In this document: in pieces, positions 33,676-50,660 of the stretch
How the letters are laid out: every line of letters begins with the position of its first letter
Position numbering within the stretch: the first letter of the stretch is position 1
Source of the DNA: an uncultured Candidatus Saccharibacteria bacterium
GTDB lineage: Bacteria; Patescibacteriota; Saccharimonadia; Saccharimonadales; JAGQNJ01
Length of the DNA: 64,000 bases
Reading direction: 5' to 3'
Assembly: GCA_964504275.1 (NCBI GenBank)
Contig: CAZDDV010000003.1
Coordinates: 8,690-72,689, forward strand
The notes under the pieces: generated by a model
What the model saw: only the letters and a program-made list of their open reading frames with translations
Told to the model about the DNA's origin: nothing
Database searches by the model: none
Made by a program: the position numbers and the translations under genes

Positions 33676-34131
33676 ATGAAAAAGCGAAATGTAAGTCAGC
33701 ACAAAATTGTGAATCGTCGCGCTCGGTTCGATTACGAGTTAGATGATAGTTTAATTGTGGGTGTGGTTTTAACTGGTCGCGAGGCAAAATCGCTCCGGCA
33801 AGGTCACGGCCAACTTCGTGGCGCCTATGTAACTATGAAAGACGAAGAACTCTGGCTCGTAAATGCGGCCATCAACAACGGCAAAACATTTGTGATCGAA
33901 GAAGAAGAGCAAACTCGCTCACGCAAACTACTAGCCAAGCGCCGTGAAATCGATGGATTCATAGCTGCCAAAAAACAGGGGCGAACAATTGTGCCGTTAG
34001 AATTTTTAACCGGTGGTCGTCACATAAAACTCAAAATCGCCCTTGGTAAAGGTAAGAAAAACTACGATAAAAGAGACGCAATCAAAAAACGCGATCAATC
34101 CAGAGACGAAATGCGCAATCTCAAACACTAG
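33676..34131 (+). CDS. smpB: SsrA-binding protein SmpB
   Basis: 151 aa. Contains NRRARFDYELDDSLIVGVVLTGREAKSLR and KLLAKRREI. No tmRNA gene was recognised in the window. Confidence 0.95.
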   Translation: MKKRNVSQHKIVNRRARFDYELDDSLIVGVVLTGREAKSLRQGHGQLRGAYVTMKDEELWLVNAAINNGKTFVIEEEEQTRSRKLLAKRREIDGFIAAKKQGRTIVPLEFLTGGRHIKLKIALGKGKKNYDKRDAIKKRDQSRDEMRNLKH

Positions 34132-34138
34132 CAAAATT

Positions 34139-35659: not shown

Positions 35660-36434
35660 GCGCTTTTCCTTTCCCTAAATTATCAATTCGCTCACGCATT
35701 TTATCAAGCAGCTCGTTGGCAGTTTTCTGGATATTCTCGTCGTGCTGTTCGACCACATTACCATCTTCGATGTGGAGTAAATTATCAGCTAGCGGCATGT
35801 ATTCCATGTTGTGCGTCACCAGAATAATAGTTCGCTTTAGCACCGTCTGACATTCTTGGAGTAAATTCATAATCTTGTCACCGTTTTTGCTGTCCAAACT
35901 TCCGGTCGGCTCATCGGCAATAATAAACAGGGGATTATTAACAATGGCGCGTGCCATGGCGATTCGTTGTTGCTCACCACCAGATAACATCGACGGATTC
36001 TTTTTTGCGTAGGCGCCCATTCCAACTTGTTCGAGTGTCGCCAACGCAATTTTTGCAGCAGCACTACGAGAATAGCCCAAAAAATACAGGGGAATAGACA
36101 CGTTTTCGATAACACTCAAACTTTTAACCCAGTAATTTTGCTGGTAGACAATACCGATTTGATTTGCACGAAATGCGGCAAGCTCGTTGGGCTTCAACTC
36201 GTACAAAGCATCGCCGCCAAACACGACACGACCGGTCGTTGGTTTTTGCAACCCCGACAAAATGTTTAGAAGTGTAGATTTACCGGAACCTGATGGACCA
36301 TAGATGATATTAAAACTGTTAGAAGACAAGTTAAAGTTAATGTCGTGCAGCACGTTAACCATTTCTTCGCCAACTTTAAACGACTGACTAACCCCGCTCA
36401 AACTAACGACATTTTTGATAACAGTTGTATCCAT
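35640..36434 (-). CDS. ABC transporter ATP-binding protein (MacB/LolD-like)
   Basis: Walker [10 protein letters not shown], signature LSGGEQQR and Walker B FIIADEPT. It starts 25 nt after the giant-protein stop. Confidence 0.95.
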
Positions 36435-36459
36435 TATTGTTTTCCCACCGTTACTATCA

Positions 36460-42400: not shown

Positions 42401-42594
42401 TGCGCCACATGTTTATGGGCGAATTTCCCGGCACGTTTTGAATAGTGAGCTGTCTTTTTAGCAGCATTTTTGACATGCGGCGCAGTCTTTCTGGCGACGT
42501 GTTTTACTCCGTGGCCAGCTCTTTTTGTTGCACCAACAACATGACGGTGCGCTGCTTTTACTTTGGTGTGGACAGCCAAAGGTAACCCTCGCAT
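36460..42594 (-). CDS. Giant (2044 aa) membrane-anchored surface protein with LamG-like, beta-propeller-type repeat, second LamG-like and multiple FN3/Ig-like domains
   Basis: Basic His/Lys-rich N-terminus and a transmembrane helix at about aa 92-110. About 14 repeats of about 51 aa carry the consensus DAEVW(R/K)WNG(T/S)xWxxIGGDGxNSSW. A LamG-like segment ends in LLDEVRISNTART. FN3-like units such as YKVYRSTNNATF...YYYYVKACD also occur. Confidence 0.9.
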   Translation of the reverse strand: MRGLPLAVHTKVKAAHRHVVGATKRAGHGVKHVARKTAPHVKNAAKKTAHYSKRAGKFAHKHVAHRPHVYLLSRVNWYRRWHEWRFHKHTHMAIFLVYVVFIASMIFVSFRQAFAASDLTENWDFTVAANFTFDDDSIETDSTTARLKAQNYASDGSTAALYHLDEIAGSTVSDTTSNNNDGTASATAWVAANLNNGLDLDGNSSHVAVPDSASLSLTGSHTLEAWTKFDSTFNTEASQDQGVLDKGAYRLYYDRTSGKVNYEIANSSASSWSREAGNDTNSSWDADGRSIVRATVTNSTDVYVGLGLGTGDAEVWKWNGTSWSQIGGDGKNSSWADQQFEDVHALTISGTTLYAGLGTNTAGDAEVWSCDMSSGCSDWDKIGGDGVNNSWAISTFEAVFSLDAYSGNVYAGIGITANDAEVWRWDGSTWAKIGGDNLNSGWNTNFEAVRSLTNDGTNLYAGLGDSAQDAEVWRWNGTAWNRVGGDGANSSWAAAANIEQVLSMTYFGGNLYAGVGLTAGDADVWRYNGTTWSQIGGDGLSSSWAASTYEIVGALANDGTNLYAGVGNTNGDGEVFRWNGTVWAKIGGDGVNSGFSANQGDGVYALAYGNSTLYAGLYDAAGNGTLWGWNGSAWTWTGGSYVNQSWGGYNLQSVESTMAHAGKLYAGTGVTVAGNALVWEYDGTSWSVIGGQGIRGSWAADAYENVYTIQSYKGELYAGLGTTANDAEVWKYNGSTWTLVGGDNVNSGWNTGFEAVNVLSVWGGNLYAGLGSSAQDAEVWRWNGTGWSRVGGDGVNSSWAAALNMESVLSMTVYNNELYAGIGISANDAEVWKFNGTTWTKIGGDGTGSSWSASLEEVYIMRVYDGKLVVGLGSSTDDAEVWAYDGTIWEKIGGDDVDGSWTAGTFERVRSMAIYNGKLYVGVGDTAGDGEVWEYNGTAWTQIGGDSINAGWTTTIEYVGSLIDYNGKLFAGTGFTGNADAAMWSYGDNGFLASAQTSQDTNWHHIAATYNGSTMKLFIDGVENASASKSVSIPNTSTPLLIGSTYGSSGRGEGQGYFTGLLDEVRISNTARTSFTTNPYVDTKESVTVNDAVFAGGVNTIDSFAATETANGGAITYRVSNDDAASWKYWDGDSWETSGSVNDANTAAAINTNIASLPVTFDGIRWQAIFDGDGDQRVTLNDVTIEATSDSIDPSANASSLAAYKTNGGASLSSNDWTNGASPYFTWTAGADADSGILGYCLYLGQDASGNPETSKGLLGASPVDAGGNCEFAVSSNSVDFATSGYISTALTSSSSPYYLHVRAIDQAGNVIGSNASFQFRFDNTVPQNPGYITAPSGFINTKEATLSWATVGGQAASDAHSGVTGLQYKIGSTTWFGDSHSGTGDITDLLANDGNYTTIDPTDFNNIIDGINTVYFRTWDEAGNVTSSYVTAALKVNTNGAPSEPQNLDVTPETNTANSFAFSWDSPGTFVGDEDNLTYCYTINSEPSVSNCSYTTTRSLSSGGYATQPGENTMYVVARDESNNINYDNYSSITFEANTPSPGLPTNVDIVDVSIKTTNNWRLALTWEPPEDTGAGISSYKVYRSTNNATFSFVGSSSSTTYIDANLSQQGYYYYVKACDSTGNCSANSSTVDMTPTGKFTDAATMTSDPVESDVTTRRATISWSTDRTSDSKVALGTKSGQYAASEVGSSEQVTSHEIDLDNLAAGTTYYYIVKWTDEDGNTGVSQEYSFSTSPAPILKEVETTKIGLSSAIISFTIQGANKVDIFYGQNESFGGVKSINTSTTESRYDIDIDGLKDGVKYFYMISAYDSEGNRYDGTIFAFTTPPRPQINNLRFQPVAGEPTSTQEITWQTNVASTSNVTYGITGTIGTDVQDSKLKTNHKIIIRGLQDDSRYFLIAQSRDVDGNLAVSDRQEFRTALDTRPPKVTDINIEPSIRGTGAEARGQVIVSWKTDEPSGSQVGYAEGSDAVVFNSRTTEDTQLTTEHIVVVSDLPTSRVYSIQPISRDKAGNAGFGEAESVIIGRASESVLTIIFNTLQRVFGL
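39625..41748 (-). repeat. Coding tandem-repeat array (about 14 units of about 153 nt) inside the giant gene
   Basis: The AEVW motif recurs at aa 313, 365, 421, 470, 522, 573, 625, 677, 727, 777, 829, 879, 931 and 981 (approximate indices counted by hand). Confidence 0.8.
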
Positions 42595-42716: not shown

Positions 42717-42745
42717 TTGAATACCGCGGCCGCATCAGATATAAT
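42717..42745 (+). promoter_or_regulatory. Sigma70-type promoter for tRNA-Asn
   Basis: TTGAAT (42717-42722), 17-nt spacer, TATAAT (42740-42745), about 25 nt upstream of the tRNA. Confidence 0.6.
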
Positions 42746-42770: not shown

Positions 42771-42845
42771 TCCCGGGTAGCTCAATGGTGGAGCAAGAAG
42801 CTGTTAACTTCGAGGTTGTCGGTTCGAGTCCGACCCCGGGAGCCA
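42771..42845 (+). tRNA. tRNA-Asn (anticodon GTT) with encoded CCA
   Basis: Acceptor TCCCGGG/CCCGGGA, D-arm GCTC-AATGGTG-GAGC, anticodon loop CTGTTAA, T-arm GTCGG-TTCGAGT-CCGAC, discriminator G plus CCA. 75 nt. Confidence 0.95.
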
Positions 42846-42904
42846 GACCAAGCAGAGAAAAGTGCAGACCTAGTTCCTAGACCTGTAATAACTTCTCTCC
42901 TTGG
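42846..42904 (+). repeat. Copy 1 of a three-member intergenic repeat family (core ACCAAGCAGAGAAAAGTRCAG...GACCTGT)
   Basis: It starts at the first base after the tRNA CCA. It forms an outer hairpin CCAAGCAGAGAA / TTCTCTCCTTGG around an inner CAGACCTAG-TTC-CTAGACCTG stem. Confidence 0.7.
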
Positions 42905-42947
42905 TCAGCCAAGTAAAAATGTGCCGATAACAAAGTACAAATGTTGG

Positions 42948-42971
42948 AACCGTCAGTAATGGCGGTTTTTT
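42948..42971 (+). terminator. Rho-independent terminator downstream of tRNA-Asn
   Basis: AACCGTC-AGTAAT-GGCGGTT followed by TTTTT. Confidence 0.6.
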
Positions 42972-42979
42972 CATTTTAC

Positions 42980-42999
42980 CTCTGTAATTTAGTTCTAAC
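42980..42999. repeat. Left member of a 20/21-nt long-range inverted repeat
   Basis: CTCTGTAATTTAGTTCTAAC is the reverse complement (one indel) of GTTAGAACTAAATTAACAGAG at 48032-48052. Confidence 0.8.
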
Positions 43000-43085
43000 C
43001 CAGCCTCTCCCGTCCCGAAGGAGCAAGCAGCACAAAAGCTGACCCGTTCCCAACGCCAGTCATATTATATATTTTGAACCTGTGC

Positions 43086-43496
43086 TTATTTTTGCTGTTC
43101 TTTCAATTTATCAAAAAATTGTTGCAATGTAGGTCGGCCGCTACCGATCAGGTATTGGTCTTCTACCTTGTTGATGTACCCGTTAGCAAGAACGATGCCA
43201 CCCAACAGCACAAAAACAGCAATGAGTAGTACTAGCGGAAACTTAGCATCGGCAAAGTTCTTATCGCGCTGGTACATTTTTACAACGCCAATAACAGCAC
43301 CTGTGGCAAATATTCCAAAGGTAATTACGGCGGAGAGTAGGCTTTGTTGCAAGTATGCCAGACTCTGGGTGATGTCGACGTTGTCAGGGTTAGTGGACTT
43401 GAAATAGACAGTAACGGCGGCGCTGACTAAGAGCGTCGCGGGCAACGCGAGCGCAACAAGGCTGATCGTAATAGTTCTTAAGCTTAGTCGTGTCAT
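43086..43496 (-). CDS. Hypothetical membrane protein
   Basis: 136 aa with three or four hydrophobic helices. Confidence 0.6.
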   Translation of the reverse strand: MTRLSLRTITISLVALALPATLLVSAAVTVYFKSTNPDNVDITQSLAYLQQSLLSAVITFGIFATGAVIGVVKMYQRDKNFADAKFPLVLLIAVFVLLGGIVLANGYINKVEDQYLIGSGRPTLQQFFDKLKEQQK

Positions 43497-43685
43497 TGCA
43501 TCTCCATATCATATTATATTTTATACTAGTATACCACTGGGAATAGATTACTGGCGATTGACCCGAATCAGCGACAGCGAAGTTGGAATCTTTGCATGGC
43601 TGCAGTGCAAAGAGGCAAAGTTGGAAACCGGTGCTCAACACGTGTCATTTTCGGAGCGGAGTAGTCCTTAGCGCGCACAGAGAGC

Positions 43686-43728
43686 CAAACCAAGCAGAGA
43701 AAAGTACAGCTGGACCTGTCCCTGTGTA
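43686..43728 (+). repeat. Copy 2 of the intergenic repeat family
   Basis: AAACCAAGCAGAGAAAAGTACAGCTGGACCTGTCCCTGTGTAC. It is preceded by GAGAGCCA, which mimics the GGGAGCCA tRNA end that precedes copy 1. Confidence 0.7.
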
Positions 43729-43750
43729 CTACAATTTGACGTTTGCATTA

Positions 43751-43767
43751 ATACCCCTAGGGGGTAT
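43751..43767. promoter_or_regulatory. CsoR-type operator palindrome
   Basis: ATACCCC-TAG-GGGGTAT has perfect 7-bp arms and lies 12 nt upstream of the csoR ATG. It matches the GC-tract palindrome style known for CsoR operators. Confidence 0.7.
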
Positions 43768-43778
43768 ATGCTGTACTC

Positions 43779-44054
43779 ATGATTACTGATATTAAAAAAC
43801 GCTCACTACACCGCGCCAAGATTATCGAGGGACAGATGCGAGGTATTCAGAAGATGATCGAAAATGAAGATTATTGCATGGACATCATTACTCAGAGCCT
43901 AGCTGTCCAGAAGTCCCTAGGCTCACTTAATAAACTTGTTCTGGAGAACCATTTACGGACTCACGTTAAAGATATGTTTGTTGCTGGTGAAACGGACAAA
44001 GCAGTTGAGGAGTTGCTTACGGTGTATGAACTCGCCAAGGTTAGAAGTAAATAA
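43779..44054 (+). CDS. csoR: CsoR/RcnR-family metal-sensing repressor
   Basis: 91 aa. Contains LHRAKIIEGQMRGIQKMIENEDYCMDIITQSLAVQKSL with the family Cys and His ligand positions. Confidence 0.9.
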   Translation: MITDIKKRSLHRAKIIEGQMRGIQKMIENEDYCMDIITQSLAVQKSLGSLNKLVLENHLRTHVKDMFVAGETDKAVEELLTVYELAKVRSK

Positions 44055-46060
44055 TGGATCATAGTAGCCATGAAAGTCACGAACATAGTGACCACGATAA
44101 GCACGCCGGGCATAACCCAGACATGTTCAAGAAGAAGTTTTGGCTGAGTCTTGTACTAACCATTCCTGTATTGCTATATTCACCAACAATTCAAGAACTT
44201 CTAAACTTCACAATGCCAGGCTTTACTGGCAGTAGTCTTATTCCCCCAATACTAGGCATCATTATTTTTGTCTACGGCGGACTAGTCTTCCTTCGCAGTG
44301 CAAAAGCAGAACTTTCAGTAAAACAACCCGGCATGATGACGCTTATATCTATGGCAATTACGGTTGCGTTGTTTTACAGCATCGCAGTTACATTTGGCCT
44401 TGAAGGTATGAGTTTTTGGTGGGAGCTGGCCACGCTTATTACCATCATGTTGCTTGGCCACTGGCTAGAGATGGCGTCGATCATGAATGCGCAGGGTGCA
44501 CTGAAAGAACTTGCCAAGTTACTGCCTGACGAGGCTGAACTTATAACGCCCAGTGGAACAAAAACGGTTTCAGTAGCCGAACTAAAGGTTCGCGATAAAG
44601 TGATTGTTAGGCCTGGAGCCAACATACCGGTTGATGGCGAAGTCGTAAAAGGCGAGTCGAGCGTCAATGAATCGATGCTCACGGGAGAATCTAAATCAGT
44701 AAAGAAGATTGTGAAGTCGCTGCTAATCGGAGGCACTATTAATGGTAGCGGCTCACTCACAATGAAGGTCACCAAGATTGGCGACGACACTGCCTTGGCT
44801 GGAATCATGAAGTTAGTCGCCGATGCCCAAAACAGTAAATCTAAAACGCAGGTACTGGCTGATCGCGCAGCTTATTATCTTACTTTTATTGCACTTGGTG
44901 CAGCACTTTTAACATTACTAGCATGGTCGCTCTCCAGTGATCGATCGGCTTCATTTATTATCGAAAGAGTGGTTACAGTACTTGTAATTGCCTGTCCCCA
45001 CGCGCTTGGTCTGGCTATTCCGCTCGTTACTGCAATTTCTACATCCTTAGCTGCTAAAAATGGTTTGCTCATTCGCGAGCGCATGGCACTGGAAGCAGCC
45101 CGAAACATAGATGTCGTATTGTTTGACAAAACAGGTACTCTCACAAAAGGTGAACAGGGCGTCGTAGATGCTGTTTCTACAGGTGATAAAAATATTCTGT
45201 TGTCACTAGCCGCTTCTGTCGAAAACGAATCAGAACATCCTATCGCCAAAGCAATCGTGCGATATGCAAAAGATAAAAAGCTAACTATCCTTGATGCTAA
45301 AAAGTTTTCTGCTATGTCGGGACGGGGCGCAACTGCGTCAGTGAACGGCAAAATCGTACATATTGGAGGCCCCAAACTACTCGAGGAATTAAGCTTAGAG
45401 CTTCCCGCTAGCATCGGCAAGGCCGCTCACACTGCCCAAAATGAAGGCAAAACAACTGTGTATGTTATTCGGGAGAAGTCCGTGCTTGGCGCAATAATGT
45501 TAGCGGATGTTATTCGCCCAGAATCTAAAGAAGCCGTTAACGCATTGCGAAAAAGAGGTATTCGGGTTGCAATGCTCACTGGTGATGCCAAGGGTGTAGC
45601 TGCATGGGTAGCAAAAGAGCTGGGAATTAAAGAATTCTTTGCTGAAGTTTTGCCAGAAAATAAAGCCGCAGTAGTTAAAAAGCTACAAGCTGATGGCAGT
45701 AAAGTGGCAATGGTTGGCGACGGCGTAAACGATGCGCCGGCGCTCACACAGGCTAATGTGGGCATTGCCATTGGCGCCGGAACCGATATTGCAATTGAAT
45801 CTGCAGGCATCGTATTGGCTAGCAGCGATCCTCGCGGTGTAGCAAGCATCGTTACGTTATCGAAAGCAACTTACAGAAAGATGATCCAAAACCTAGCGTG
45901 GGCAACTGGCTACAACGCACTGGCTATTCCACTGGCGACTGGCGTCACAGCTGGCTTTGGTTTTGTATTATCACCAGCTATTGGCGCAGTGCTTATGTCG
46001 TTGTCTACGATCGTAGTAGCAGCTAATGCTCAGTTCCTGCGTAATCTAAAGCTCAGATAA
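44054..46060 (+). CDS. copB: Copper-translocating P1B-type ATPase (CPH motif, His-rich N-terminus; CopB-like)
   Basis: 668 aa. The N-terminus is MDHSSHESHEHSDHDKHAGH. The transmembrane CPH sits in ACPHALGLA. The phosphorylation site is DKTGTLT and the hinge is GDGVNDAP. TAATG overlap with csoR. Confidence 0.9.
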   Translation: MDHSSHESHEHSDHDKHAGHNPDMFKKKFWLSLVLTIPVLLYSPTIQELLNFTMPGFTGSSLIPPILGIIIFVYGGLVFLRSAKAELSVKQPGMMTLISMAITVALFYSIAVTFGLEGMSFWWELATLITIMLLGHWLEMASIMNAQGALKELAKLLPDEAELITPSGTKTVSVAELKVRDKVIVRPGANIPVDGEVVKGESSVNESMLTGESKSVKKIVKSLLIGGTINGSGSLTMKVTKIGDDTALAGIMKLVADAQNSKSKTQVLADRAAYYLTFIALGAALLTLLAWSLSSDRSASFIIERVVTVLVIACPHALGLAIPLVTAISTSLAAKNGLLIRERMALEAARNIDVVLFDKTGTLTKGEQGVVDAVSTGDKNILLSLAASVENESEHPIAKAIVRYAKDKKLTILDAKKFSAMSGRGATASVNGKIVHIGGPKLLEELSLELPASIGKAAHTAQNEGKTTVYVIREKSVLGAIMLADVIRPESKEAVNALRKRGIRVAMLTGDAKGVAAWVAKELGIKEFFAEVLPENKAAVVKKLQADGSKVAMVGDGVNDAPALTQANVGIAIGAGTDIAIESAGIVLASSDPRGVASIVTLSKATYRKMIQNLAWATGYNALAIPLATGVTAGFGFVLSPAIGAVLMSLSTIVVAANAQFLRNLKLR

Positions 46061-46080
46061 TCAATAATAAAGGGAAAATC

Positions 46081-46746
46081 ATGAAGAATAAATCAAATAT
46101 AGTAATCGCCGCCGTTGTCGGTATCGTAGTAGTTGTCGGTATCAGCGTGTACGCATTTAACCGTAACGATGGTGAGATGATAGACGACAACATAACAATG
46201 ATGTCTGGCGGCAAAGCATCTCAGGGTACGGTGCCTGCAAACAAAGACTCAAGTGACTACAAAATGTTTGCTGATATAACCGGCGAAGACTACGACCGCC
46301 TGTTCCTAGCAAATATGATTGCGCATCACCAAGGCGCGGTGGATATGGCAAACCTTGCGTTAACTAATGCAAAGCACCAAGAAGTGAAAGATTTAGCAAC
46401 CGCAATCGTGAATGCACAGACAAAAGAAATTGGCGACATGACGGCGTGGCAAAAATCCTGGAGTTACCCAGCCAGTAGTGGCGAAATGATGATAGATCAC
46501 TCGTCTATGGGAATGATGGACACTAATGCCGGTATGATGAATGCCCTAAACGGCAAAACTGGTGACAAATTTGACAAAGCATTCTTGGCGCAAATGAGAA
46601 TGCACCACCAATCTGCAATAGATATGGCTAGCACAGGAGCTACTAATGCATACCATCAAGAAGTGAAAGACCTTACCAAAGGTATAATTACTGCCCAAAC
46701 AAAAGAAATCCTACAAATGCGACAATGGCAAAAAGATTGGAACTAG
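46081..46746 (+). CDS. DUF305 family protein (membrane-anchored)
   Basis: 221 aa with two DUF305 half-repeats (MIAHHQGAVDMA and MRMHHQSAIDMA). The family is frequently linked to copper loci. Confidence 0.85.
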   Translation: MKNKSNIVIAAVVGIVVVVGISVYAFNRNDGEMIDDNITMMSGGKASQGTVPANKDSSDYKMFADITGEDYDRLFLANMIAHHQGAVDMANLALTNAKHQEVKDLATAIVNAQTKEIGDMTAWQKSWSYPASSGEMMIDHSSMGMMDTNAGMMNALNGKTGDKFDKAFLAQMRMHHQSAIDMASTGATNAYHQEVKDLTKGIITAQTKEILQMRQWQKDWN

Positions 46747-46749
46747 TGA

Positions 46750-46766
46750 TCCGTCCTCTAACAGAT
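46750..46766 (+). repeat. Solo REP-like copy related to the ends of the RayT element
   Basis: TCCGTCCTCTAACAGAT is identical to the core of the inverted repeats at 48790-48817 and 49479-49507. It begins 4 nt after the DUF305 stop. Confidence 0.7.
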
Positions 46767-46790
46767 AGGATTTTATAGCATGTTAATTAT

Positions 46791-46958
46791 ATGCTAGTTG
46801 GTATTACTGACTTAACTGGCTTGGGGATATTTGACTTTGAGGTATTCCCGCATTACGCAGATGATGTACATAAAAAGATACTAGAAAACTATAGATCCAC
46901 TACACACCATCAAGTCAGAGAAATGGGTGACGAGGATTATATTATTGTAGATATGTAA
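46791..46958 (+). pseudogene. Possible C-terminal remnant of an S51 (peptidase E-like) gene
   Basis: 55-codon ORF MLVGITDLTGLGIFDFEVFPHYADDVHKKILENY... The GLG..DF.V.PHY pattern is recalled from the S51 family. The remnant is far too short to be a complete enzyme. Confidence 0.3.
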
Positions 46959-46978
46959 GTTTGCTTGATGCGTAGTTC

Positions 46979-47010
46979 AGTTGCGATAGTGTGCACGATG
47001 GCCCTCCAAA
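46979..47010 (+). repeat. Direct repeat A flanking the PNP-like gene
   Basis: AGTTGCGATA-N6-ACGAT-G-GCCCTCCAAA. It matches 47897-47928 at 25 of 32 positions. Confidence 0.65.
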
Positions 47011-47121
47011 GACGCCTAAACAGATACGAGTTAGTTCCAATAACAGCACCGTTGTTTTTAGCTACTAATTTGTATCTGTTATTTAGTTCGACTCTCTCTT
47101 GGTGTCTGATATAGTTGGATT

Positions 47122-47898
47122 ATGTATAAGAGTATCTCTGCAGAGCAATATCGTCAGCACTTAGGATTTCCATCTGACTATCAAGTAGATGCAGTGCTTT
47201 GCTATGGAACATTGTATGAAGATAGAGTGTTAGCTCAACTAGCTGAAGCGATTAAAGAGTTGGGTATTCAAGTGCAGGTCAATGCTTTACCTCATCCATT
47301 TTTACGATTCGCAAAAGAACTTCGGATTGGTGATAAAACAATATGGTTTGCGATTGGATATGGAGGAGCTTGGTTGAGCGAGTACTTACATTGGGCATGT
47401 CTTTTTGGGTCAAAAAAGAATATATTGATTGGGTCGTGTGGTGGCTTGAAAAGTGGTATGAAGCAAGGTGAATTTATAGTGCCGGAAAGTAGTTATGGTG
47501 AAGAAAGTTCAGTGAAAATGTATAACAGGGAAAGCAATAACCAGTTCCCTGATGAAACACTGAGCGAGAGTTTAGCTGCGAGCCTAGGAGATGATGGTAC
47601 TAAGGTTTGGCGAGGACAAATGGTTACTTGTCAGGCAATGATTGGTGAAACGATGGATGATATAAGGAAATGGTCTAGTGATGGATATTTTGGAGTTGAG
47701 ATGGAAGCCTCAACCGTGTTTGCGGTGTCTAATCATTTTGGAGTACCGTCAGCAGCCTCTCTTTATGTTGGGGATAATCTAATTGAAAAGCACAATAATA
47801 TGAGCGAAGAATACGCAGCAGAAGCGGATGTTCGAAAACAAAATCAACTCAAACAGATAAAAATAGCACTATCGAAGCTTGTTCCTGGCCAATTATAG
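47122..47898 (+). CDS. Nucleoside phosphorylase superfamily (PNP_UDP_1-like) protein
   Basis: 258 aa. Contains IGSCGGLK and FGVEMEASTVFAVSNHFGVPSAASLYVGDN. Confidence 0.65.
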   Translation: MYKSISAEQYRQHLGFPSDYQVDAVLCYGTLYEDRVLAQLAEAIKELGIQVQVNALPHPFLRFAKELRIGDKTIWFAIGYGGAWLSEYLHWACLFGSKKNILIGSCGGLKSGMKQGEFIVPESSYGEESSVKMYNRESNNQFPDETLSESLAASLGDDGTKVWRGQMVTCQAMIGETMDDIRKWSSDGYFGVEMEASTVFAVSNHFGVPSAASLYVGDNLIEKHNNMSEEYAAEADVRKQNQLKQIKIALSKLVPGQL

Positions 47899-47928
47899 TT
47901 GCGATATACAAGACGATAGCCCTCCAAA
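47897..47928 (+). repeat. Direct repeat B flanking the PNP-like gene
   Basis: AGTTGCGATA-N6-ACGAT-A-GCCCTCCAAA. It overlaps the gene's TAG stop. Confidence 0.65.
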
Positions 47929-48000
47929 AAAGTATAAATTCTTTCAAAATTAACAGATGTAAGCTAAGCTAAAGGGAGCCTGAAACAAGGTGGTAGCGAT

Positions 48001-48029
48001 TGCTGGTTCGAATCCAGTCTCCGGAGCCA
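48001..48029 (+). other. Orphan tRNA 3-prime-end fragment (T-arm + acceptor + GCCA), tRNA-Asn-like
   Basis: TGCTGG-TTCGAAT-CCAGT-CTCCGGA-GCCA. No matching 5-prime acceptor strand, D-arm or anticodon arm lies upstream. It has the same orientation as tRNA-Asn at 42771. Confidence 0.6.
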
Positions 48030-48031
48030 AA

Positions 48032-48052
48032 GTTAGAACTAAATTAACAGAG
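48032..48052. repeat. Right member of the long-range inverted repeat
   Basis: GTTAGAACTAAATTAACAGAG begins 2 nt after the tRNA fragment. Confidence 0.8.
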
Positions 48053-48230
48053 ACACTAGCCTCTTTTTTCATCATGGGGTAGTGCGGTCAACGAAGCTAT
48101 AATCAATATCAACCTATCTTTGACGCTCCCTATTGCCTACGCAGCTGGAAGACATTTAAAACTTTGATACAGAGTTCACCCAGAAATATTCAACTGAAGA
48201 ATGTTAGCTACTAAGGATGCGTAGGCATGT

Positions 48231-48692
48231 TTATATCATCTTCGCTTTGGAGATTGATTCTTTGGCATAGAATATAACGCTTGGAGATAAATCGTATTTA
48301 GCATCATCTAATTCATTAATATCGAACCACCTCATATCAGTATGCTCATCTGAAATTTTGAAATTGTCAGAGTCAGTCTTCATAAAATATGTGAACGAAA
48401 TATGTTTGTGAGGCGGATTAGCTTCGTGAACATCCACATAATTTGGTGTAATTATGAACTTTGTTTCAGGCGAAAGTACATTGGGTTTAGTCGTAAGAGG
48501 CACGGTAGCAAGACCCGTTTCCTCAATAATCTCACGGAACAACGCTTCTTCTGGATCTTCATTCAATTCAATATGGCCGCCAATGGGAATCCATTTGCCA
48601 TACCTAGGGTGATGTACAAGTAGTACTTTACTTTCATTGTTTACTATAAAAGCAGTAATAGTATAGTCGTATAGTTCATTTATGTGCGGCAT
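48231..48692 (-). CDS. NUDIX hydrolase
   Basis: 153 aa. The Nudix box is GGHIELNEDPEEALFREIIEETG. Confidence 0.9.
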   Translation of the reverse strand: MPHINELYDYTITAFIVNNESKVLLVHHPRYGKWIPIGGHIELNEDPEEALFREIIEETGLATVPLTTKPNVLSPETKFIITPNYVDVHEANPPHKHISFTYFMKTDSDNFKISDEHTDMRWFDINELDDAKYDLSPSVIFYAKESISKAKMI

Positions 48693-48789
48693 GTTATCTC
48701 ACTTTCACTACAAGCCTAGTATAGATCATATTGTATTACAAACCTTGTTTTATATATAAAATAGTGTTAATATAAGTTAATATTAAAGG

Positions 48790-49507
48790 GCGCTAGAGGT
48801 CCGTCCTCTAACAGATGAGGTTTTGTTGGATTTTAGTAATCTGCTAGTTCGTATTTGATACGTGCGAGCATGTCTCTGTGATCTTCATAGTCATTCAAGA
48901 AGTGTCTGTACTCTTGGGAATCGCTAAATAAAGCAAGTATCCTGTCGGGGCGTATCCATTCAGCCTTGGCTTTGTCGATGTAATAGTTGAGGCTGGAGTA
49001 GGGATACAACTTCCAGTATTTGGGGTTGAGATGGATGTATCTTGTTATGTGTTGCAGATATTCATCTGTGTCGGTTCTTACGGCTTTGTAGCGGCTTTCA
49101 AATAGTGCGCCGGTTCGTTTGTATTTGATATTGAAGTATCGGCTATAGCTCGTCATGACTGAGCGCATAAATTTTGACATGGCTTGTTCGTGCTTTTGGT
49201 AAACGTAGAGATGGAAGTGATTCTTCATTAGACAATATGCTAATAGCTCCAAGTTTTCTTTGTAGTTAGGATAGGCAACACCAGCGCTAGATCGACAATT
49301 TTTTTGAGATAAATAACGTTTAAATAACGAGATAAAGTATGTATAATCTGCGTCTTCTAAGAAAATATCACCCTTGCTTGCTCCGCGTGCATACACATGA
49401 TAGTAACTTCCGGCCAGATCAATTTTTATCACATTTCGAGAAGGCATAGGACAACAATAACACAATACAACTTTACTCCATCTGTTAGAGGACGGACCTC
49501 TAGGCGC
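48790..49507. mobile_element. REPtron-like unit: Y1 (RayT/IS200-like) transposase gene flanked by 28-29-nt inverted REP-like repeats
   Basis: The left end is GCGCTAGAGGTCCGTCCTCTAACAGATG (48790-48817). The right end is CATCTGTTAGAGGACGGACCTCTAGGCGC (49479-49507). Each contains an AGAGG-TCCGT-CCTCT hairpin. Confidence 0.75.
48833..49447 (-). CDS. REP-associated tyrosine transposase (RayT) / IS200-like Y1 transposase family
   Basis: Contains YHVYARG, the HUH motif in NHFHLYVY, and the catalytic-Tyr region TRYIHLNPKYW. The start is placed at MPSRNV rather than the ORF-track ATG at 49465. Confidence 0.8.
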   Translation of the reverse strand: MPSRNVIKIDLAGSYYHVYARGASKGDIFLEDADYTYFISLFKRYLSQKNCRSSAGVAYPNYKENLELLAYCLMKNHFHLYVYQKHEQAMSKFMRSVMTSYSRYFNIKYKRTGALFESRYKAVRTDTDEYLQHITRYIHLNPKYWKLYPYSSLNYYIDKAKAEWIRPDRILALFSDSQEYRHFLNDYEDHRDMLARIKYELADY

Positions 49508-49587
49508 TCTAGGCGAAAAGTTCCAAAAATATCAACTAACTGGAGCCATAATTTACAAATGCTACTTTTTGTGGTATTATTTGTTTA

Positions 49588-50031
49588 ATCTCTCTCTCCG
49601 TTACTCATCTTACTGACCCAGGACGCATAGCCGATGCGCACTTTGTACGTGCTGAAGTTTTCCAGACAGAACAGGGGATTCCTGCATTAGATGACTTTGA
49701 TGATCTCGACAGCACTGCCGAACAGTTTGTTGCTTACGACGAAAAAGGATTCCCCGTTGGGACTGCTCGCTACCGCGCTCTCGAAGACGGAGCGGGCAAA
49801 GTAGAGCGCGTTGCCGTACTTTCGAGCCATCGAGGCAAAAAAGTTGGCGAGGCAATCATGAATGCAATTCATGAAACTGCAGCAGAACAAGGTCTAAACC
49901 AACTCGTACTCGACTCCCAACTAAGTGCTGCTGGTTTTTATGCAAGTCTAGGCTACGAGCAGCAAGACGACACATTTGACGAAGTCGGCATTACACACAT
50001 AAAGATGATCAAGCATTTAGCAACAAATTAA
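49588..50031 (+). CDS. GNAT acetyltransferase (ElaA/YjcF-like) with no canonical start codon; possibly 5-prime disrupted
   Basis: The frame is open from 49552 to the TAA at 50029-50031. It encodes ...VRAEVFQTEQGIP...RVAVLSSHRGKKVGEAIM...FYASLGYE. The first in-frame ATG, GTG or TTG is only 55 codons from the end, so the ORF track misses it. The 49588 ATC start is a guess. Confidence 0.55.
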   Translation: MSLSVTHLTDPGRIADAHFVRAEVFQTEQGIPALDDFDDLDSTAEQFVAYDEKGFPVGTARYRALEDGAGKVERVAVLSSHRGKKVGEAIMNAIHETAAEQGLNQLVLDSQLSAAGFYASLGYEQQDDTFDEVGITHIKMIKHLATN

Positions 50032-50036
50032 CCATT

Positions 50037-50552
50037 ATGCCTGAACTTCTTACTGACATGCATTTATCACGTACACAGGCTGCCGTCCTGGACGAGAAAA
50101 ACATACAACGGTTCACCGGCTTCATGCGTACCAAGTGCATTGAAGCATCTGGCAGTAAGGCGTGTGGTCTCGTAGTTGAGGTGACCCAGGCAGAACGCAC
50201 CGCTTGTGTGAGTTGTGTCAACTGTTCGGCACCAGCTGCCCAGTCGTTCGCCGCGGTTGAACTTCCTAGTTTGGCGAATGCTTTAATTTTAGATACTGAC
50301 CTTGTCCAAGATCCCGAGCCGAACGTGAACTTTTCTCACCTACGATTAGTTGAGGCACTTGATTCTATCATGGCCAACGAAAATACTGGTGTTATCATTT
50401 CTGGTCGCGCGGCAACTGTAGTTGAACCTATCGGATATGCTCACACATTATCAAATCGACAAGTTTTATTTCCTGTTACTAGCATCGAAGGTCAGGGTGG
50501 CGCTATTGAGCCTGGCGTGCCAGTGCTGATTGAGTTTCCTGAGCCTCGATAG
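50037..50552 (+). CDS. Hypothetical protein
   Basis: 171-aa ORF starting 5 nt after the GNAT stop. No family recognised. Confidence 0.5.
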   Translation: MPELLTDMHLSRTQAAVLDEKNIQRFTGFMRTKCIEASGSKACGLVVEVTQAERTACVSCVNCSAPAAQSFAAVELPSLANALILDTDLVQDPEPNVNFSHLRLVEALDSIMANENTGVIISGRAATVVEPIGYAHTLSNRQVLFPVTSIEGQGGAIEPGVPVLIEFPEPR

Positions 50553-50594
50553 CGTCGAAGCTAAAGCTCCGAAGTACATCAACTAGAGGAACCT

Positions 50595-50638
50595 AAACCA
50601 AGCAAAGAAAAGTACAGACCCAGCTTCTAGACCTGTAC
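50595..50638 (+). repeat. Copy 3 of the intergenic repeat family
   Basis: AAACCAAGCAAAGAAAAGTACAGACCCAGCTTCTAGACCTGTAC, with a GTACAG/CTGTAC stem. Confidence 0.7.
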
Positions 50639-50660
50639 CTGATTTATTCCAAGGAAAACA

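What the first reader, a model, noticed from the sequence alone, without database searches (positions are those of the whole stretch)
42771..48052. Copper-resistance cassette bracketed by tRNA-Asn, an orphan tRNA 3-prime fragment and a 20-nt inverted repeat pair
An intact tRNA-Asn (42771-42845) is followed about 5.2 kb later, in the same orientation, by an orphan T-arm/acceptor/GCCA fragment (48001-48029). The fragment resembles a tRNA-Asn 3-prime end but matches the resident gene at only about 20 of 29 positions by eye. Between them lie a membrane protein gene, csoR with a perfect operator palindrome, a CPH-type Cu ATPase, a DUF305 gene, a gene remnant and a nucleoside-phosphorylase-like gene. 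CTCTGTAATTTAGTTCTAAC (42980-42999) and GTTAGAACTAAATTAACAGAG (48032-48052) form a 20/21 inverted repeat enclosing the same block, and the right copy starts 2 nt after the tRNA fragment. This is the architecture expected of a tRNA-targeted island or a non-autonomous IR-bounded element. However, no integrase or transposase lies inside it. The 3-prime part (about 46.7-49.6 kb) is visibly more AT-rich than the flanking core genes.
Basis: partly seen in the sequence, partly recalled or inferred. Interest (0 to 1): 0.65.

Follow-up and report, generated by a model that had tools for sequence, protein, structure and literature searches.

The report
Copper cassette in tRNA-Asn island array
A copper-efflux operon of a Saccharibacteria genome sits just downstream of the tRNA-Asn gene as one recombinase-less cassette in a chain of cassettes that related genomes fill with different genes. 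This is a familiar kind of genomic island, but I found no description of this phylum-wide version.

Summary
tRNA-Asn, the orphan T-arm/acceptor/GCCA piece, the inverted repeat, the gene content and the AT-rich 3' part are all present at the stated coordinates.

The "fragment" is the 3' end of an 88-nt module, here called F (47942-48029). F recurs in about 35 Saccharibacteria loci. Where enough upstream sequence was held, it usually lies 1.2-8 kb downstream of a tRNA-Asn gene on the same strand, with variable cargo between them, often metal resistance. In one genome (L085) the same copper cassette is bracketed by tRNA-Asn and F. In L025, 7.9 kb is inserted exactly at the tRNA 3' end.

Large serine recombinase genes abut these ...GGAGCCA junctions in eight related loci. 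None lies in the window. So the copper block is most likely a recombinase-less cassette in a tandem, tRNA-Asn-anchored island array. It resembles the Dehalococcoides ssrA islands and the Prochlorococcus tycheposon islands.

The 20-nt inverted repeat does not bound an element. Its left copy belongs to a conserved, structured trailer of tRNA-Asn. Its right copy starts the next cassette. The AT-rich DNA is a secondary insertion beside a RAYT-type Y1 transposase, not part of the copper cassette.

The parts
42717..42745 (+). Promoter-like site upstream of tRNA-Asn (TTGAAT-17-TATAAT)
   Evidence: Consensus scan, 10 of 12. This is a consensus match only.
42771..42845 (+). tRNA-Asn (GTT), the anchor of the array (left junction ...GGGAGCCA|)
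   Evidence: ARAGORN; Rfam 63.6 bits.
42846..42975 (+). T trailer: a 61-nt hairpin (42846-42906) and an intrinsic terminator (42946-42969 plus T run). It starts directly after GCCA.
   Evidence: Fold -44.8 kcal/mol, z = -6.0. Family HMM hit E 2e-44. Among 20 homologues, 4 outer-stem pairs show compensatory changes and the terminator covaries. No Rfam family matches.
42980..42999 (+). It is part of the conserved trailer, not an element end.
   Evidence: I7. The same motif sits at the same place after tRNA-Asn or F in L084, L085, L025 and L038.
43012..43050 (+). T': a degenerate second copy of the first part of T. In L084, L085 and L025 it lies directly upstream of the csoR promoter.
   Evidence: It is part of the 215-nt trailer homology (window 42846-43060 versus L085 E 1.6e-50, L025 5e-41, L084 3e-36). 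The T' label rests on reading.
43086..43496 (-). 136-aa membrane-like ORF inside a ~665-nt insertion (about 43047-43711). The insertion is absent from L084, L085 and L025.
   Evidence: No Pfam family. blastn to L025 breaks at 43051 and resumes at 43749.
43682..43719 (+). Junction repeat GAGCCA + T'' (first ~30 nt of T). It is a direct repeat of 42840-42867.
   Evidence: 28 nt, 93% (D5). T HMM E 1.3e-3.
43751..43767 (.). CsoR operator-like palindrome ATACCCC-TAG-GGGGTAT
   Evidence: Read. Equivalent palindromes lie upstream of csoR in L084, L025, L085, L087, L089 and L090.
43779..44054 (+). csoR (metal-sensing repressor)
   Evidence: PF02583, E 2.2e-23.
44054..46060 (+). P1B-type ATPase with a CPH motif and a His-rich N-terminus (CopB-like)
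   Evidence: PF00122 and PF00702. Motifs read in the translation.
46081..46746 (+). DUF305 protein, the last gene of the copper cassette
   Evidence: PF03713, E 2.8e-54. 783 homologues at E<=1e-20; the best listed are 62-87% identical and sit in csoR-ATPase-DUF305 cassettes wherever the context was looked up.
46743..46805 (+). Solo copy of the RAYT-element end (REP-like hairpin plus the last codons of a Y1 gene). It marks the left edge of the AT-rich insertion.
   Evidence: D2: 63 nt, 79% to 48793-48855. I2: inverted to 49480-49503. The 20-mer occurs 3 times against 0 expected.
46791..46958 (+). 55-aa ORF, possibly a remnant of a peptidase S51 gene
   Evidence: PF03575, E 0.0055, below the cut-off.
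47122..47898 (+). Nucleoside-phosphorylase-like gene (AT-rich cargo)
   Evidence: PF01048, E 7e-19.
47942..48029 (+). F module: a conserved ~60-nt non-tRNA arm plus a 28-nt tRNA-Asn-like T-arm, acceptor strand and GCCA. It is the right end of the copper cassette.
   Evidence: Single-sequence nhmmer from the window: L025 8.6e-9, L085 1.5e-7, L036 2e-5. blastn 80.6% over 72 nt to L025. 29 further members come from one metagenome scan. No covariation or fold.
48032..48071 (+). Right copy of the inverted repeat, overlapping a weak hairpin and a T run. It is the left end of the next block.
   Evidence: The same 'fragment + A[AG] + motif + hairpin + T run' occurs in L054, L025 and L085.
48231..48692 (-). 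NUDIX hydrolase (GC 0.36 block)
   Evidence: PF00293, E 4.8e-17. A 63%-identical homologue is cargo between tRNA-Asn and F in L102.
48793..49503 (-). RAYT-type Y1 transposase gene (48833-49447) flanked by 40-nt inverted repeats that carry the hairpin AGAGG-TCCGT-CCTCT
   Evidence: PF01797, E 5.9e-11. I1. 2870 homologues, some named RayT by their sources. The L124 homologue is flanked by 64-nt inverted repeats carrying GTCCTCTAACAG.
49552..50031 (+). GNAT acetyltransferase frame with no canonical start codon upstream of the domain
   Evidence: Pfam GNAT families. Translation.
50037..50552 (+). 171-aa protein of unknown function, rare (4 homologues in the database)
50577..50596 (+). Sequence resembling the right arm of the serine-recombinase element of L121 (CATCAACTAGAGGAACCTAA versus TTTCAACTAGACGGAGCCAG)
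   Evidence: 13 of 20 with an exact 9-mer, in the same register before a T copy. Suggestive only.
50597..50648 (+). T''': a truncated T copy (5' half). Proposed far end of the array, followed by the chromosomal flank.
   Evidence: nhmmer E 4.7e-4 with a single sequence and 3e-8 with the family HMM on sub-regions.

Best explanation
The locus is a tRNA-Asn-anchored tandem array of small genomic islands (cassettes) in a Saccharibacteria genome. The copper operon is one recombinase-less cassette of that array.

Shown:
- Recombination joints lie at the very 3' end of tRNA-Asn (...GGAGCCA|) or of copies of that end.
- The copper cassette runs from the trailer after tRNA-Asn to the F module.
- Relatives carry other cargo, extra cassettes or recombinase-bearing elements at exactly these joints.

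Inferred:
- Large serine recombinases encoded by some elements of the family catalyse insertion at the GGAGCCA joint.
Many of them end in F.
- Successive insertions and deletions leave chains of the form tRNA-Asn | cassette | F | cassette | F ...
- Cassettes that have lost, or never had, a recombinase could move only in trans, by co-excision with a neighbour, or by homologous recombination between the conserved F and T modules after DNA uptake.

Proposed chain in the window:
- tRNA-Asn
- T trailer
- a 665-nt insertion carrying the membrane ORF
- T''-csoR-copB-DUF305, then a 1.2-kb AT-rich insertion beside a RAYT end, then F
- a second block: NUDIX, RAYT, GNAT and the 171-aa protein
- truncated T''', then chromosome.

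Function: the operon itself is an ordinary CsoR-repressed copper efflux unit.
For: 1. L085 has tRNA-Asn 4474-4548, then a trailer homologous to window 42846-43060 (E 1.6e-50), then csoR...ATPase-DUF305, then F 40 nt after the DUF305 stop. Its chromosomal neighbours to the left are different.

2. L025 (coordinates in window orientation) has tRNA-Asn 17020-17094, 7.9 kb of other genes, then F 24913-24995, the trailer and csoR-ATPase. Homology to the window overlaps over 42816-42854, which is the duplicated joint. None of the Pfam families found in its eight ORFs is a recombinase family.

3. L084 has tRNA-Asn, the trailer and csoR without the membrane-gene segment.

4. A full or intron-bearing tRNA-Asn lies 1.2-7 kb upstream of F, on the same strand, in L095, L100, L101, L102, L107, L111, L119, L121 and L122. 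Cargo includes ArsR plus P-type ATPases, a cupredoxin and a pyridine-nucleotide-disulphide oxidoreductase. Several F copies per locus occur in L098, L114, L117 and L118.

5. L121 has an intact 489-aa large serine recombinase (Resolvase, Recombinase and Zn_ribbon_recom domains). It lies on the reverse strand and its stop codon falls inside the end of F. The 7.4-kb element is flanked by the 8-nt repeat CGGAGCCA, and its right side abuts a T copy.

6. Recombinase genes or remnants read toward the joint directly after F in L102, L116 and L120, and directly after full tRNA-Asn in L111. In L095 and L011 they lie about 0.7-1.1 kb beyond a T copy. In L038 the gene lies about 6 kb from the tRNA.

7. 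All 20 full-length T copies are preceded by GAGCCA.

8. Within the window, a 28-nt direct repeat spans the tRNA end and the start of T, and there is a truncated T at 50597.
Against: - No recombinase gene or remnant lies in the 64-kb window. No excision product or empty site was seen, and four same-strain contigs are colinear. Mobility of this particular cassette is therefore unproven; it may be a fossil.
- F and the resident tRNA end share only 21 of 29 positions, so no recent insertion into this tRNA gene is recorded.
- The right arm of the L121 element is not F, so F is not the arm of every recombinase family at this site. Which recombinase, if any, recognises F|T is unknown.
- The copper genes have native GC (0.453). 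The cassette sits next to tRNA-Asn in several related species, so within this clade it could be inherited vertically.
- The right limit at 50596 rests on a 43-52-nt T fragment and a 13/20 similarity.
- F and T were not found in IMG/VR viral contigs.
Confidence: 0.6

Rival explanations
1. This is a host-maintained variable locus with no site-specific mobility. F and T are resident, functional modules: T a small RNA co-transcribed with tRNA-Asn, and F a promoter-bearing partial duplicate. Gene turnover between them comes from homologous recombination among these repeats and from natural transformation. The recombinase elements merely use the same site.
For: - T is structurally constrained. It has 4 compensatory stem pairs and a terminator, and it always starts at GCCA.
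- F is 80-90% conserved across very different genomes and contains a TTGACA-16-TAARNT promoter-like motif.
- Most cassettes lack any recombinase.
- The copper genes have native GC.
- The flanking repeats are long (F plus T, about 220-300 nt) and 85-95% alike, which is enough for RecA-dependent exchange.
Against: - Recombinase genes sit precisely at the joints in eight loci.
- The L121 element is bounded by an 8-nt repeat, not by long homology.
- The short fragment-type repeats (16-18 nt) in L054, L034, L101 and L105 are typical of site-specific insertion.
- F shows no RNA fold or covariation.
Confidence: 0.25
2. This is a non-autonomous transposon or MITE-like element bounded by the 20-nt inverted repeats 42980-42999 and 48032-48052. 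It would be mobilised in trans, for example by the nearby Y1 transposase.
For: - The repeat is real and unlikely by chance: the 15-mer occurs twice against 0.02 expected.
- A Y1 transposase lies 780 nt to the right.
- The motif shares TAACAG with the RAYT hairpins.
Against: - The left copy is embedded in the trailer conserved after tRNA-Asn or F in L084, L085, L025 and L038.
- The right copy follows tRNA fragments in L054 and L025 in other configurations. In L025 the order of the two orientations is reversed.
- In L085 only about 9 nt remain complementary.
- There is no target-site duplication.
- No breakpoint in any relative coincides with the repeat pair.
- From my own knowledge, Y1 transposases of the IS200/IS605 type do not use terminal inverted repeats.
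Confidence: 0.03
3. This is a classical single-step tRNA island: one element carrying the whole 5.2 kb integrated into this tRNA-Asn gene through a tyrosine integrase that was later lost. The fragment would be the displaced original 3' end.
For: An intact tRNA and a 3' fragment in the same orientation bracket the block. This is the Islander-type signature described in PMC4383910.
Against: - The fragment cannot be the displaced end of this gene. Its acceptor strand CTCCGGA does not fit the resident 5' strand TCCCGGG.
- The interval has three layers with different GC and different distribution in relatives.
- The trailer and csoR directly follow tRNA-Asn in other species.
- The recombinases found at these joints are serine, not tyrosine, enzymes.
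Confidence: 0.07

Closest known systems
Dehalococcoides ssrA-specific genomic islands (McMurdie et al. 2011, PMC3146451)
   Same: - A streamlined genome with tandem islands downstream of a single tRNA-like gene.
- Islands are delimited by the gene or by repeats of its 3' end.
- A conserved motif just upstream of each repeat does not align with the gene.
- A large serine recombinase gene lies on the reverse strand next to the left joint, with its 3' end overlapping the joint.
- Islands without an integration module are interpreted as cis-mobilisable.
   Different: - The target here is tRNA-Asn, not tmRNA.
- The repeated right-end module is much longer (88 nt, of which about 60 nt is not tRNA-like) and is conserved across a whole phylum-level group.
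- Many cassettes start with a 130-nt structured trailer (T).
- At least four divergent recombinase types occur at the site.
- No six-gene integration module was seen.
- Cargo here is metal resistance and nucleotide salvage, not dehalogenases.
Prochlorococcus tycheposons and their tRNA-anchored islands (Hackl et al., bioRxiv 10.1101/2020.12.28.424599)
   Same: - A reduced genome in which the flexible genes are concentrated next to tRNA genes.
- Full and partial tRNAs mark element ends.
- Newer elements push older ones further in, and degenerated elements and extra partial tRNAs remain.
- Cargo acts as plug-in metabolic or stress modules, including metal homeostasis.
- A minority of elements use large serine recombinases.
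   Different: - Most tycheposons use tyrosine recombinases and carry replication modules.
- They use seven tRNA targets rather than one.
- No counterpart of the F arm or the T trailer is described there.
Cis-mobilisable elements and accretion at att sites (ICESt1/CIME of Streptococcus thermophilus; from my own knowledge, and cited within PMC3146451)
   Same: Blocks flanked by attachment-type sites but lacking recombination genes lie in tandem with autonomous elements that could mobilise them.
   Different: That system uses a tyrosine integrase at the 3' end of a protein gene (fda). Mobilisation was shown experimentally there and has not been shown here.
Integron cassette arrays (from my own knowledge)
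   Same: A chain of small, mostly promoterless cargo units, each ending in a repeated recombination-site-like module and anchored at one fixed site.
   Different: - No IntI-type tyrosine recombinase is present.
- F shows no attC-like folded structure.
- Cassettes here carry their own regulators and promoters (csoR with its operator).
- The anchor is a tRNA gene.
CsoR-regulated copper efflux operons (csoR-copA/copZ type; from my own knowledge)
   Same: A CsoR-family repressor, a GC-rich operator palindrome overlapping the promoter, and a P1B ATPase.
   Different: The ATPase has a CPH motif and a His-rich N-terminus instead of CPC and an HMA domain. A DUF305 gene replaces the chaperone gene. Relatives insert SHOCT, DUF5676 and permease genes.

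Membership tests
tRNA-gene-targeted genomic island (Islander-type definition, PMC4383910) | Intact tRNA gene at one end | tested here: met
   tRNA-Asn 42771-42845.
tRNA-gene-targeted genomic island (Islander-type definition, PMC4383910) | Displaced tRNA 3' fragment in direct orientation at the other end | tested here: met
   48001-48029, same strand. It is of tRNA-Asn type: 24 of 25 core positions match the L066 and L084 tRNA-Asn genes.
tRNA-gene-targeted genomic island (Islander-type definition, PMC4383910) | Fragment (near-)identical to the regenerated tRNA end, as after a recent insertion | tested here: not met
   21 of 29 positions match. The acceptor strand is incompatible with the resident 5' strand.
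tRNA-gene-targeted genomic island (Islander-type definition, PMC4383910) | Integrase gene inside the island | tested here: not met
   No recombinase domain in any ORF of 42846-48029. No serine-recombinase similarity anywhere in the window.
tRNA-gene-targeted genomic island (Islander-type definition, PMC4383910) | Presence/absence polymorphism at the boundaries in related genomes | tested here: met
   L025, L054, L084 and L085.
Tandem serine-recombinase island array (Dehalococcoides ssrA-GI type) | Several islands in series, each delimited by the target gene or a repeat of its 3' end | tested here: met
   In the window: tRNA end, GAGCCA|T'' at 43682, F at 47942, and T''' at 50597. In relatives: 2-3 F copies in L098, L114 and L117.
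Tandem serine-recombinase island array (Dehalococcoides ssrA-GI type) | Large serine recombinase gene next to the left joint, on the reverse strand, with its 3' end reaching the joint | tested here: not met
   Absent from the window. Present in relatives L121, L102, L116, L120 and L111.
Tandem serine-recombinase island array (Dehalococcoides ssrA-GI type) | Excision to a circular intermediate, or integration activity | not testable with these tools
   No read-level data. Same-strain contigs show only the integrated arrangement.
Non-autonomous transposon bounded by inverted repeats (MITE-like) | Terminal inverted repeats | tested here: met
   15 nt perfect, 20 of 21 with one indel.
Non-autonomous transposon bounded by inverted repeats (MITE-like) | Target-site duplication flanking the repeats | tested here: not met
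   The flanks are ...CATTTTAC| and |ACACTAGC.
Non-autonomous transposon bounded by inverted repeats (MITE-like) | Indel boundaries in relatives coincide with the repeats | tested here: not met
   The left copy is conserved inside the trailer of L084, L085 and L025. The arrangement is reversed in L025.
CsoR-regulated copper efflux operon | CsoR-family repressor gene with an upstream palindromic operator, and a P1B ATPase with a CPx motif | tested here: met
   PF02583 2.2e-23. PF00122 and PF00702. CPH read in the translation. The palindrome at 43751-43767 is conserved in six relatives. Copper specificity is inferred, not tested.
RAYT / IS200-like Y1 transposase element | Y1_Tnp domain with an HUH motif, flanked by inverted hairpin-bearing repeats | tested here: met
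   PF01797 5.9e-11. HFH read in the translation. 40-nt inverted repeats with the hairpin AGAGG-TCCGT-CCTCT. The homologue in L124 has comparable repeats.
tmRNA or another known structured RNA ending in a tRNA-like 3' part (considered for the fragment) | Match to a curated RNA family, or an alanine-type acceptor (G3:U70, ACCA end) | tested here: not met
   No Rfam hit up to E = 10. ARAGORN finds no tmRNA. The end is GGAGCCA with a G discriminator. F shows no covariation.

The most novel reading that the evidence does not exclude
F and T are not relics but the working parts of a phylum-wide cassette platform in Saccharibacteria. Under this reading, T is a new small RNA that is always fused to a tRNA-Asn-type 3' end, which would give it a defined processing site. 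F supplies a promoter and the recombinase half-site. Together, F|T acts as the attachment site of recombinase-less cassettes that serine recombinases capture and shuffle in trans at tRNA-Asn. This would be a serine-recombinase analogue of an integron.
Probability: 0.2. Interest if true: 0.75.

Novelty: new member of a known kind. Interest (0 to 1): 0.5.

Why it matters
Saccharibacteria are reduced-genome episymbionts, and their routes of gene exchange are poorly known. I found no paper describing islands at tRNA-Asn in this group.

The locus shows that accessory traits such as copper, cadmium/zinc and possibly mercury resistance, and nucleotide salvage, are concentrated in one recombination hotspot. 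Two conserved markers, F and T, could be used to delimit the flexible genome in metagenome-assembled genomes.

The serine recombinases with their short, definable target at the tRNA-Asn end are candidate integration tools for organisms with few genetic tools (my own assessment).

The copper operon itself is ordinary.

Tried and rejected
1. The fragment as the 3' end of a tmRNA (smpB is nearby) or another known RNA. There is no Rfam or ARAGORN match and the acceptor is of the wrong type.

2. F as a structured RNA. RNAalifold gives -6.9 kcal/mol with no compensatory pairs. The T-stem is paired no better than in shuffles, and one pair is broken in 21 of 27 sequences.

3. The left repeat copy as a degenerate F. 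This was suggested by eye but is not detected by the F HMM even with all filters off, so I dropped it.

4. F or T as a phage attachment site. IMG/VR scans for the arm, for T and for the L121 recombinase found nothing. The exact 25-nt core hit only a tRNA-Asn gene in the tRNA array of an unrelated high-GC phage.

5. The right copy of the repeat as the remnant of a recombinase gene end. The similarity to the L111, L116, L120 and L121 ends is limited to TAGAACTA, and tblastn is negative.

6. The right chromosomal boundary from homologues of the 171-aa protein. There are only 4 homologues, and none lies near F, T or tRNA-Asn.

7. Contexts of RAYT homologues. There is no synteny.

8. Alternative junctions in same-strain contigs. 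None were found.

Full report
COORDINATE CONVENTIONS
- Window coordinates are as given.
- Loci L005-L084 were fetched with the 2044-aa gene on the plus strand. For them I quote positions in window orientation, that is, the reverse complement of the stored locus (stored = length - quoted + 1). L025 is 26081 nt, L054 26078 nt and L084 17281 nt.
- Loci L093-L122 are quoted with F on the plus strand. This equals the stored orientation for L095, L098, L114 and L121.

1. THE OBSERVATION

ARAGORN and Rfam find one tRNA in the window, tRNA-Asn(GTT), at 42771-42845.

The piece at 48001-48029 (TGCTGGTTCGAATCCAGTCTCCGGAGCCA) is a T-arm, a 3' acceptor strand and GCCA.
- It matches the resident gene at 21 of 29 positions.
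- The T-stem differences are paired changes (TCGG/CCGA versus CTGG/CCAG).
- Its acceptor strand CTCCGGA would need a 5' strand TCCGGAG, whereas the resident gene has TCCCGGG.
- It matches tRNA-Asn genes of other Saccharibacteria at 24 of 25 positions over the 25-nt core (L066, L084).
- The same 25-nt core is the end of a bona fide tRNA-Asn in an unrelated phage tRNA array.
- It is therefore a tRNA-Asn 3' end of a different allele. It is neither a decayed copy nor the displaced end of this gene.

The inverted repeat is 15 nt perfect. The 15-mer occurs twice in the window against 0.02 expected.

The gene calls hold. The ATPase has a CPH motif and a His-rich N-terminus. The operator has 7-bp perfect arms with a 3-nt spacer, at 43751-43767.

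The segment 46747-49503 has the lowest GC of any 2757-nt stretch of the window (0.389 against 0.456 +/- 0.025).

Four contigs from three data sources are colinear with the window at 99.8-100% identity.

(a) A 28-nt direct repeat, 93% identical, joins the last 6 nt of the tRNA plus the next 22 nt (42840-42867) to 43682-43709. It brackets the membrane ORF.
(b) The 130 nt after the tRNA (42846-42975) fold into a 61-nt hairpin and a terminator, with z = -6.0.
(c) The sequence CTAG[AT]G[AG]TCCGTCCTCTAACAGAT occurs three times, against 0 expected. Two inverted copies flank a Y1 transposase gene (48793-49503; PF01797). One solo copy, with the last codons of such a gene, overlaps the DUF305 stop at 46743-46805. 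The AT-rich zone is bounded by this solo copy and the far inverted copy.
(d) A truncated copy of the post-tRNA hairpin lies at 50597-50648.

3. ORGANISM AND NEIGHBOURS

The 2044-aa protein upstream has 80 relatives in species-representative genomes. Most are titled Candidatus Saccharibacteria or Saccharimonadales, and a minority carry other taxon names.

The order SmpB-FtsX-ABC-2044-aa protein is conserved. What follows is not. The closest relatives (66-73% identity in the large protein) all have tRNA-Asn next:
- L084 continues with the same trailer and then csoR directly, without the membrane ORF.
- L025 has 7.9 kb of other genes before an F copy, the trailer and csoR-ATPase. Their Pfam families (HAD hydrolase, nucleoside hydrolase, glyoxalase, deoxyribosyltransferase, ribonucleotide reductase, GreA-like, NUDIX) include no recombinase family.
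- L054 has none of the window's genes within 9 kb. Its ORFs give transketolase, YcaO and flavoprotein hits and no recombinase family.

The locus is therefore a synteny break point with indels exactly at the tRNA end. In L025 the two homology blocks to the window overlap over 42816-42854. That overlap is the duplicated joint.

4. THE FRAGMENT IS THE END OF A CONSERVED MODULE (F)

Homology between the window and L025 extends 43 nt upstream of the tRNA-like part (80.6% over 72 nt). L036 and L085/L086 have the same module.

A single pattern scan of metagenome contigs returned 29 further members. The family profile also finds second and third copies in L098, L114, L117, L118 and L101, and a degenerate copy in L089.

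The consensus is:
TTGACAATTAACAGATG TAAGCTAAAGTAAAGCGAGCCTAAAATTAGGTGGTAGAAACAC TTGGTTCGAATCCAGTCCCCGGAGCCA

F is conserved as sequence. It has no supported fold, no compensatory change, and a T-stem paired no better than in shuffles. There is no support for a structured RNA.

5. tRNA-Asn AND F BRACKET VARIABLE CARGO IN MANY GENOMES

A tRNA-Asn gene lies 1.2-7 kb upstream of F on the same strand in L095, L101, L107, L111, L119, L121 and L122. In L100 and L102 the tRNA carries a group I intron. In L117, with 8 kb upstream of one F copy, no tRNA-Asn was detected.

Cargo between them includes:
- ArsR with a CadA-like ATPase (L095)
- ArsR, a cupredoxin and a copper ATPase (L107)
- ArsR with a pyridine-nucleotide-disulphide oxidoreductase (L119)
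- a CAAX-type protease (L101)
- a major-facilitator transporter with an oxidoreductase (L121, L122)

L085 is decisive for the copper cassette. It has tRNA-Asn 4474-4548, then a trailer homologous to window 42846-43060 (E 1.6e-50), then csoR-...-ATPase-DUF305, with F beginning 40 nt after the DUF305 stop. Its left chromosomal neighbours are different (IMPDH, adenylosuccinate synthase).

L089 has an intron-bearing tRNA-Asn, csoR...DUF305 and a degenerate F. L087 has GAGCCA|T'-csoR...DUF305 and diverges exactly where F would begin.

The csoR-ATPase-DUF305 unit is widespread in the group (783 DUF305 homologues at E<=1e-20) and sits in different surroundings.

6. THE TRAILER (T)

The 130 nt after tRNA-Asn are 79% conserved on average over 20 non-identical copies. 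All copies begin directly after GAGCCA, whether of a tRNA-Asn, an F or a shorter fragment.

The outer 12-bp stem has four pairs with compensatory changes (CG/GC five times, AU/UA four, AU/CG two, GC/CG one). The terminator stem also covaries.

No Rfam family matches it. T follows the full tRNA in the window and in L084, L085, L095, L101, L107, L119, L121 and L011. It follows F in L025, L094, L095, L097-L101, L107/L114, L108 and L117.

7. THE RECOMBINASES

L121 encodes an intact 489-aa large serine recombinase (Resolvase, Recombinase and zinc-ribbon domains).
- It lies on the reverse strand, immediately right of F, and its stop codon falls inside the acceptor strand of F.
- The 7.4-kb element ends at ...TTTCAACTAGACGGAGCCA, followed by a T copy. 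It therefore interrupted an F|T joint and is flanked by the 8-nt repeat CGGAGCCA.

Other recombinase genes or remnants read toward the joint:
- directly after F in L102, L116 and L120
- directly after the full tRNA-Asn in L111, where the 1.6-kb remnant element ends in F
- about 0.7-1.1 kb beyond a T copy in L095 and L011
- about 6 kb from the tRNA in L038

At least four divergent recombinase types use this site. None is in the window, and neither is any remnant.

This arrangement parallels the Dehalococcoides ssrA islands point by point. The shared points are tandem islands, a reverse-strand serine recombinase overlapping the left joint, a conserved non-target motif upstream of each repeat, and recombinase-less islands read as cis-mobilisable. 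It also resembles the tRNA-anchored islands of Prochlorococcus.

8. READING OF THE WINDOW

Shown:
- the joints and repeats
- the homology of each module
- the insertion of about 665 nt (43047-43711) relative to L084, L085 and L025
- the insertion of about 1.2 kb (46765-47949) relative to L085, L087 and L089. In those genomes DUF305 is followed by 40 nt ending AATTAACAGATG and then F. The window has TAACAGAT at both edges of the insertion.

Inferred chain:
- tRNA-Asn
- T-terminator-motif
- T'... membrane ORF ... GAGCCA
- T''-csoR-copB-DUF305-[RAYT-end remnant, S51 remnant, PNP-like]-F
- [repeat motif-terminator, NUDIX, RAYT, GNAT, 171-aa protein, arm-like 50577-50596]
- T'''
- chromosome

The last block is the weakest part of this reading. 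Its limits rest on F at the left, a 43-52-nt T fragment at the right, and a 13/20 similarity (with an exact 9-mer) to the right arm of the L121 element.

The copper genes have native GC (0.453). The PNP-like and NUDIX blocks have GC 0.36-0.39.

9. THE INVERTED REPEAT

The repeat is real, but it does not bound an element.
- The right copy, together with a hairpin and T run, follows tRNA fragments in L054 (17-nt repeat of its own tRNA end), L025 and L085.
- The left copy follows the T terminator in many genomes.
- In L025 the inverted copy comes before the direct one. In L102 a direct copy lies between F and a recombinase gene.
- The motif may be a protein-binding site shared by cassette left ends. 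I could not assign it a role.

10. MECHANISM AND CONFIDENCE

Best supported (0.6): recombination at the GGAGCCA joint, by serine recombinases encoded by some elements, builds tandem arrays. The copper cassette is a recombinase-less member. It could be mobile only in trans, by co-excision or by homologous exchange through F and T, or it may be fixed.

The main rival (0.25) keeps F and T as host modules and attributes turnover to homologous recombination.

The transposon bounded by inverted repeats (0.03) and the single-step tyrosine-integrase island (0.07) are disfavoured.

No mobility of this cassette was observed. That would need read-level data.

11. NOVELTY

tRNA-anchored tandem islands with serine recombinases and recombinase-less cassettes are known. 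Full-text searches found no description of this tRNA-Asn system in Saccharibacteria or Patescibacteria. The tRNA-Asn group I introns seen in relatives are published (PMC13011429).

I file the finding as a new member of a known kind. It has two unusual conserved modules, F and T, that deserve follow-up.

Noticed in passing
window 42846-42975; also L084, L085, L025, L095, L101, L107, L119, L121 and others: A ~130-nt element (hairpin plus terminator) always starts directly after the GCCA of tRNA-Asn or of an F copy. It averages 79% column identity over 20 copies, has compensatory changes in the hairpin stem, and has no Rfam family. It may be an undescribed small RNA co-transcribed with tRNA-Asn, or a recombination-site arm.
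   Followed up: partly
window 48793-49503 and 46743-46805: A RAYT-type Y1 transposase gene is flanked by 40-nt inverted repeats with a 5-bp hairpin. A third, solo repeat copy, with the last codons of such a gene, overlaps the DUF305 stop. The protein has 2870 homologues of uniform length (about 204 aa, about 60% identity) in Patescibacteria. Same-strain assemblies break inside the gene (L002 and L004 end there; L125-L127 start there).
   Followed up: partly
window 46757-46764 and 47950-47957: The 1.2-kb AT-rich insertion between DUF305 and F has TAACAGAT at both edges. The same octamer is part of the RAYT hairpin repeat and of the conserved sequence just upstream of F in many genomes. This hints that the Y1 enzyme targets that motif.
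   Followed up: no
L089 1-296; L028 (window orientation) about 18640-18776; L100 and L102 upstream of their T copies: In these relatives the tRNA-Asn gene is interrupted in the anticodon loop by a ~220-nt group I intron, which ARAGORN misses. This was already described for Patescibacteria (PMC13011429).
   Followed up: yes
window 49504-50031: The GNAT frame is open from 49552 but has no ATG, GTG or TTG before the domain. Gene callers report only a 57-aa C-terminal ORF. Its 5' end lies about 50 nt from the RAYT repeat, so the gene may be truncated or may use an unusual start codon.
   Followed up: partly
window 33676-42594 and loci L005-L084: The block SmpB, FtsX/MacB-type permease, ABC ATPase and a ~2000-aa LamG/fibronectin-type protein is conserved in order across 80 related genomes. 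The DNA beyond the large gene differs in almost every one.
   Followed up: partly
window 47019-47092: A third, degenerate copy of the repeat motif (TATCTGTTATTTAGTTCGAC, 47073-47092) lies upstream of the PNP-like gene, together with a 17-nt inverted repeat (47019-47035 / 47064-47080). In addition, AGTTGCGATA...GCCCTCCAAA occurs both before (46978) and after (47897) that gene.
   Followed up: no
L003 versus window 43502-50154: One same-species contig differs from the window by a 9-nt indel and 4 substitutions. Two contigs (L003, L004) start at 43502 and 43511, just outside the start of the membrane ORF. This could reflect population heterogeneity at that small insertion.
   Followed up: no
L025, L102 and the window: Nucleotide-salvage genes recur as cargo in these arrays: a nucleoside hydrolase, a deoxyribosyltransferase, a ribonucleotide reductase, NUDIX hydrolases and a PNP-like gene. 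This would fit organisms that depend on scavenged nucleosides.
   Followed up: no
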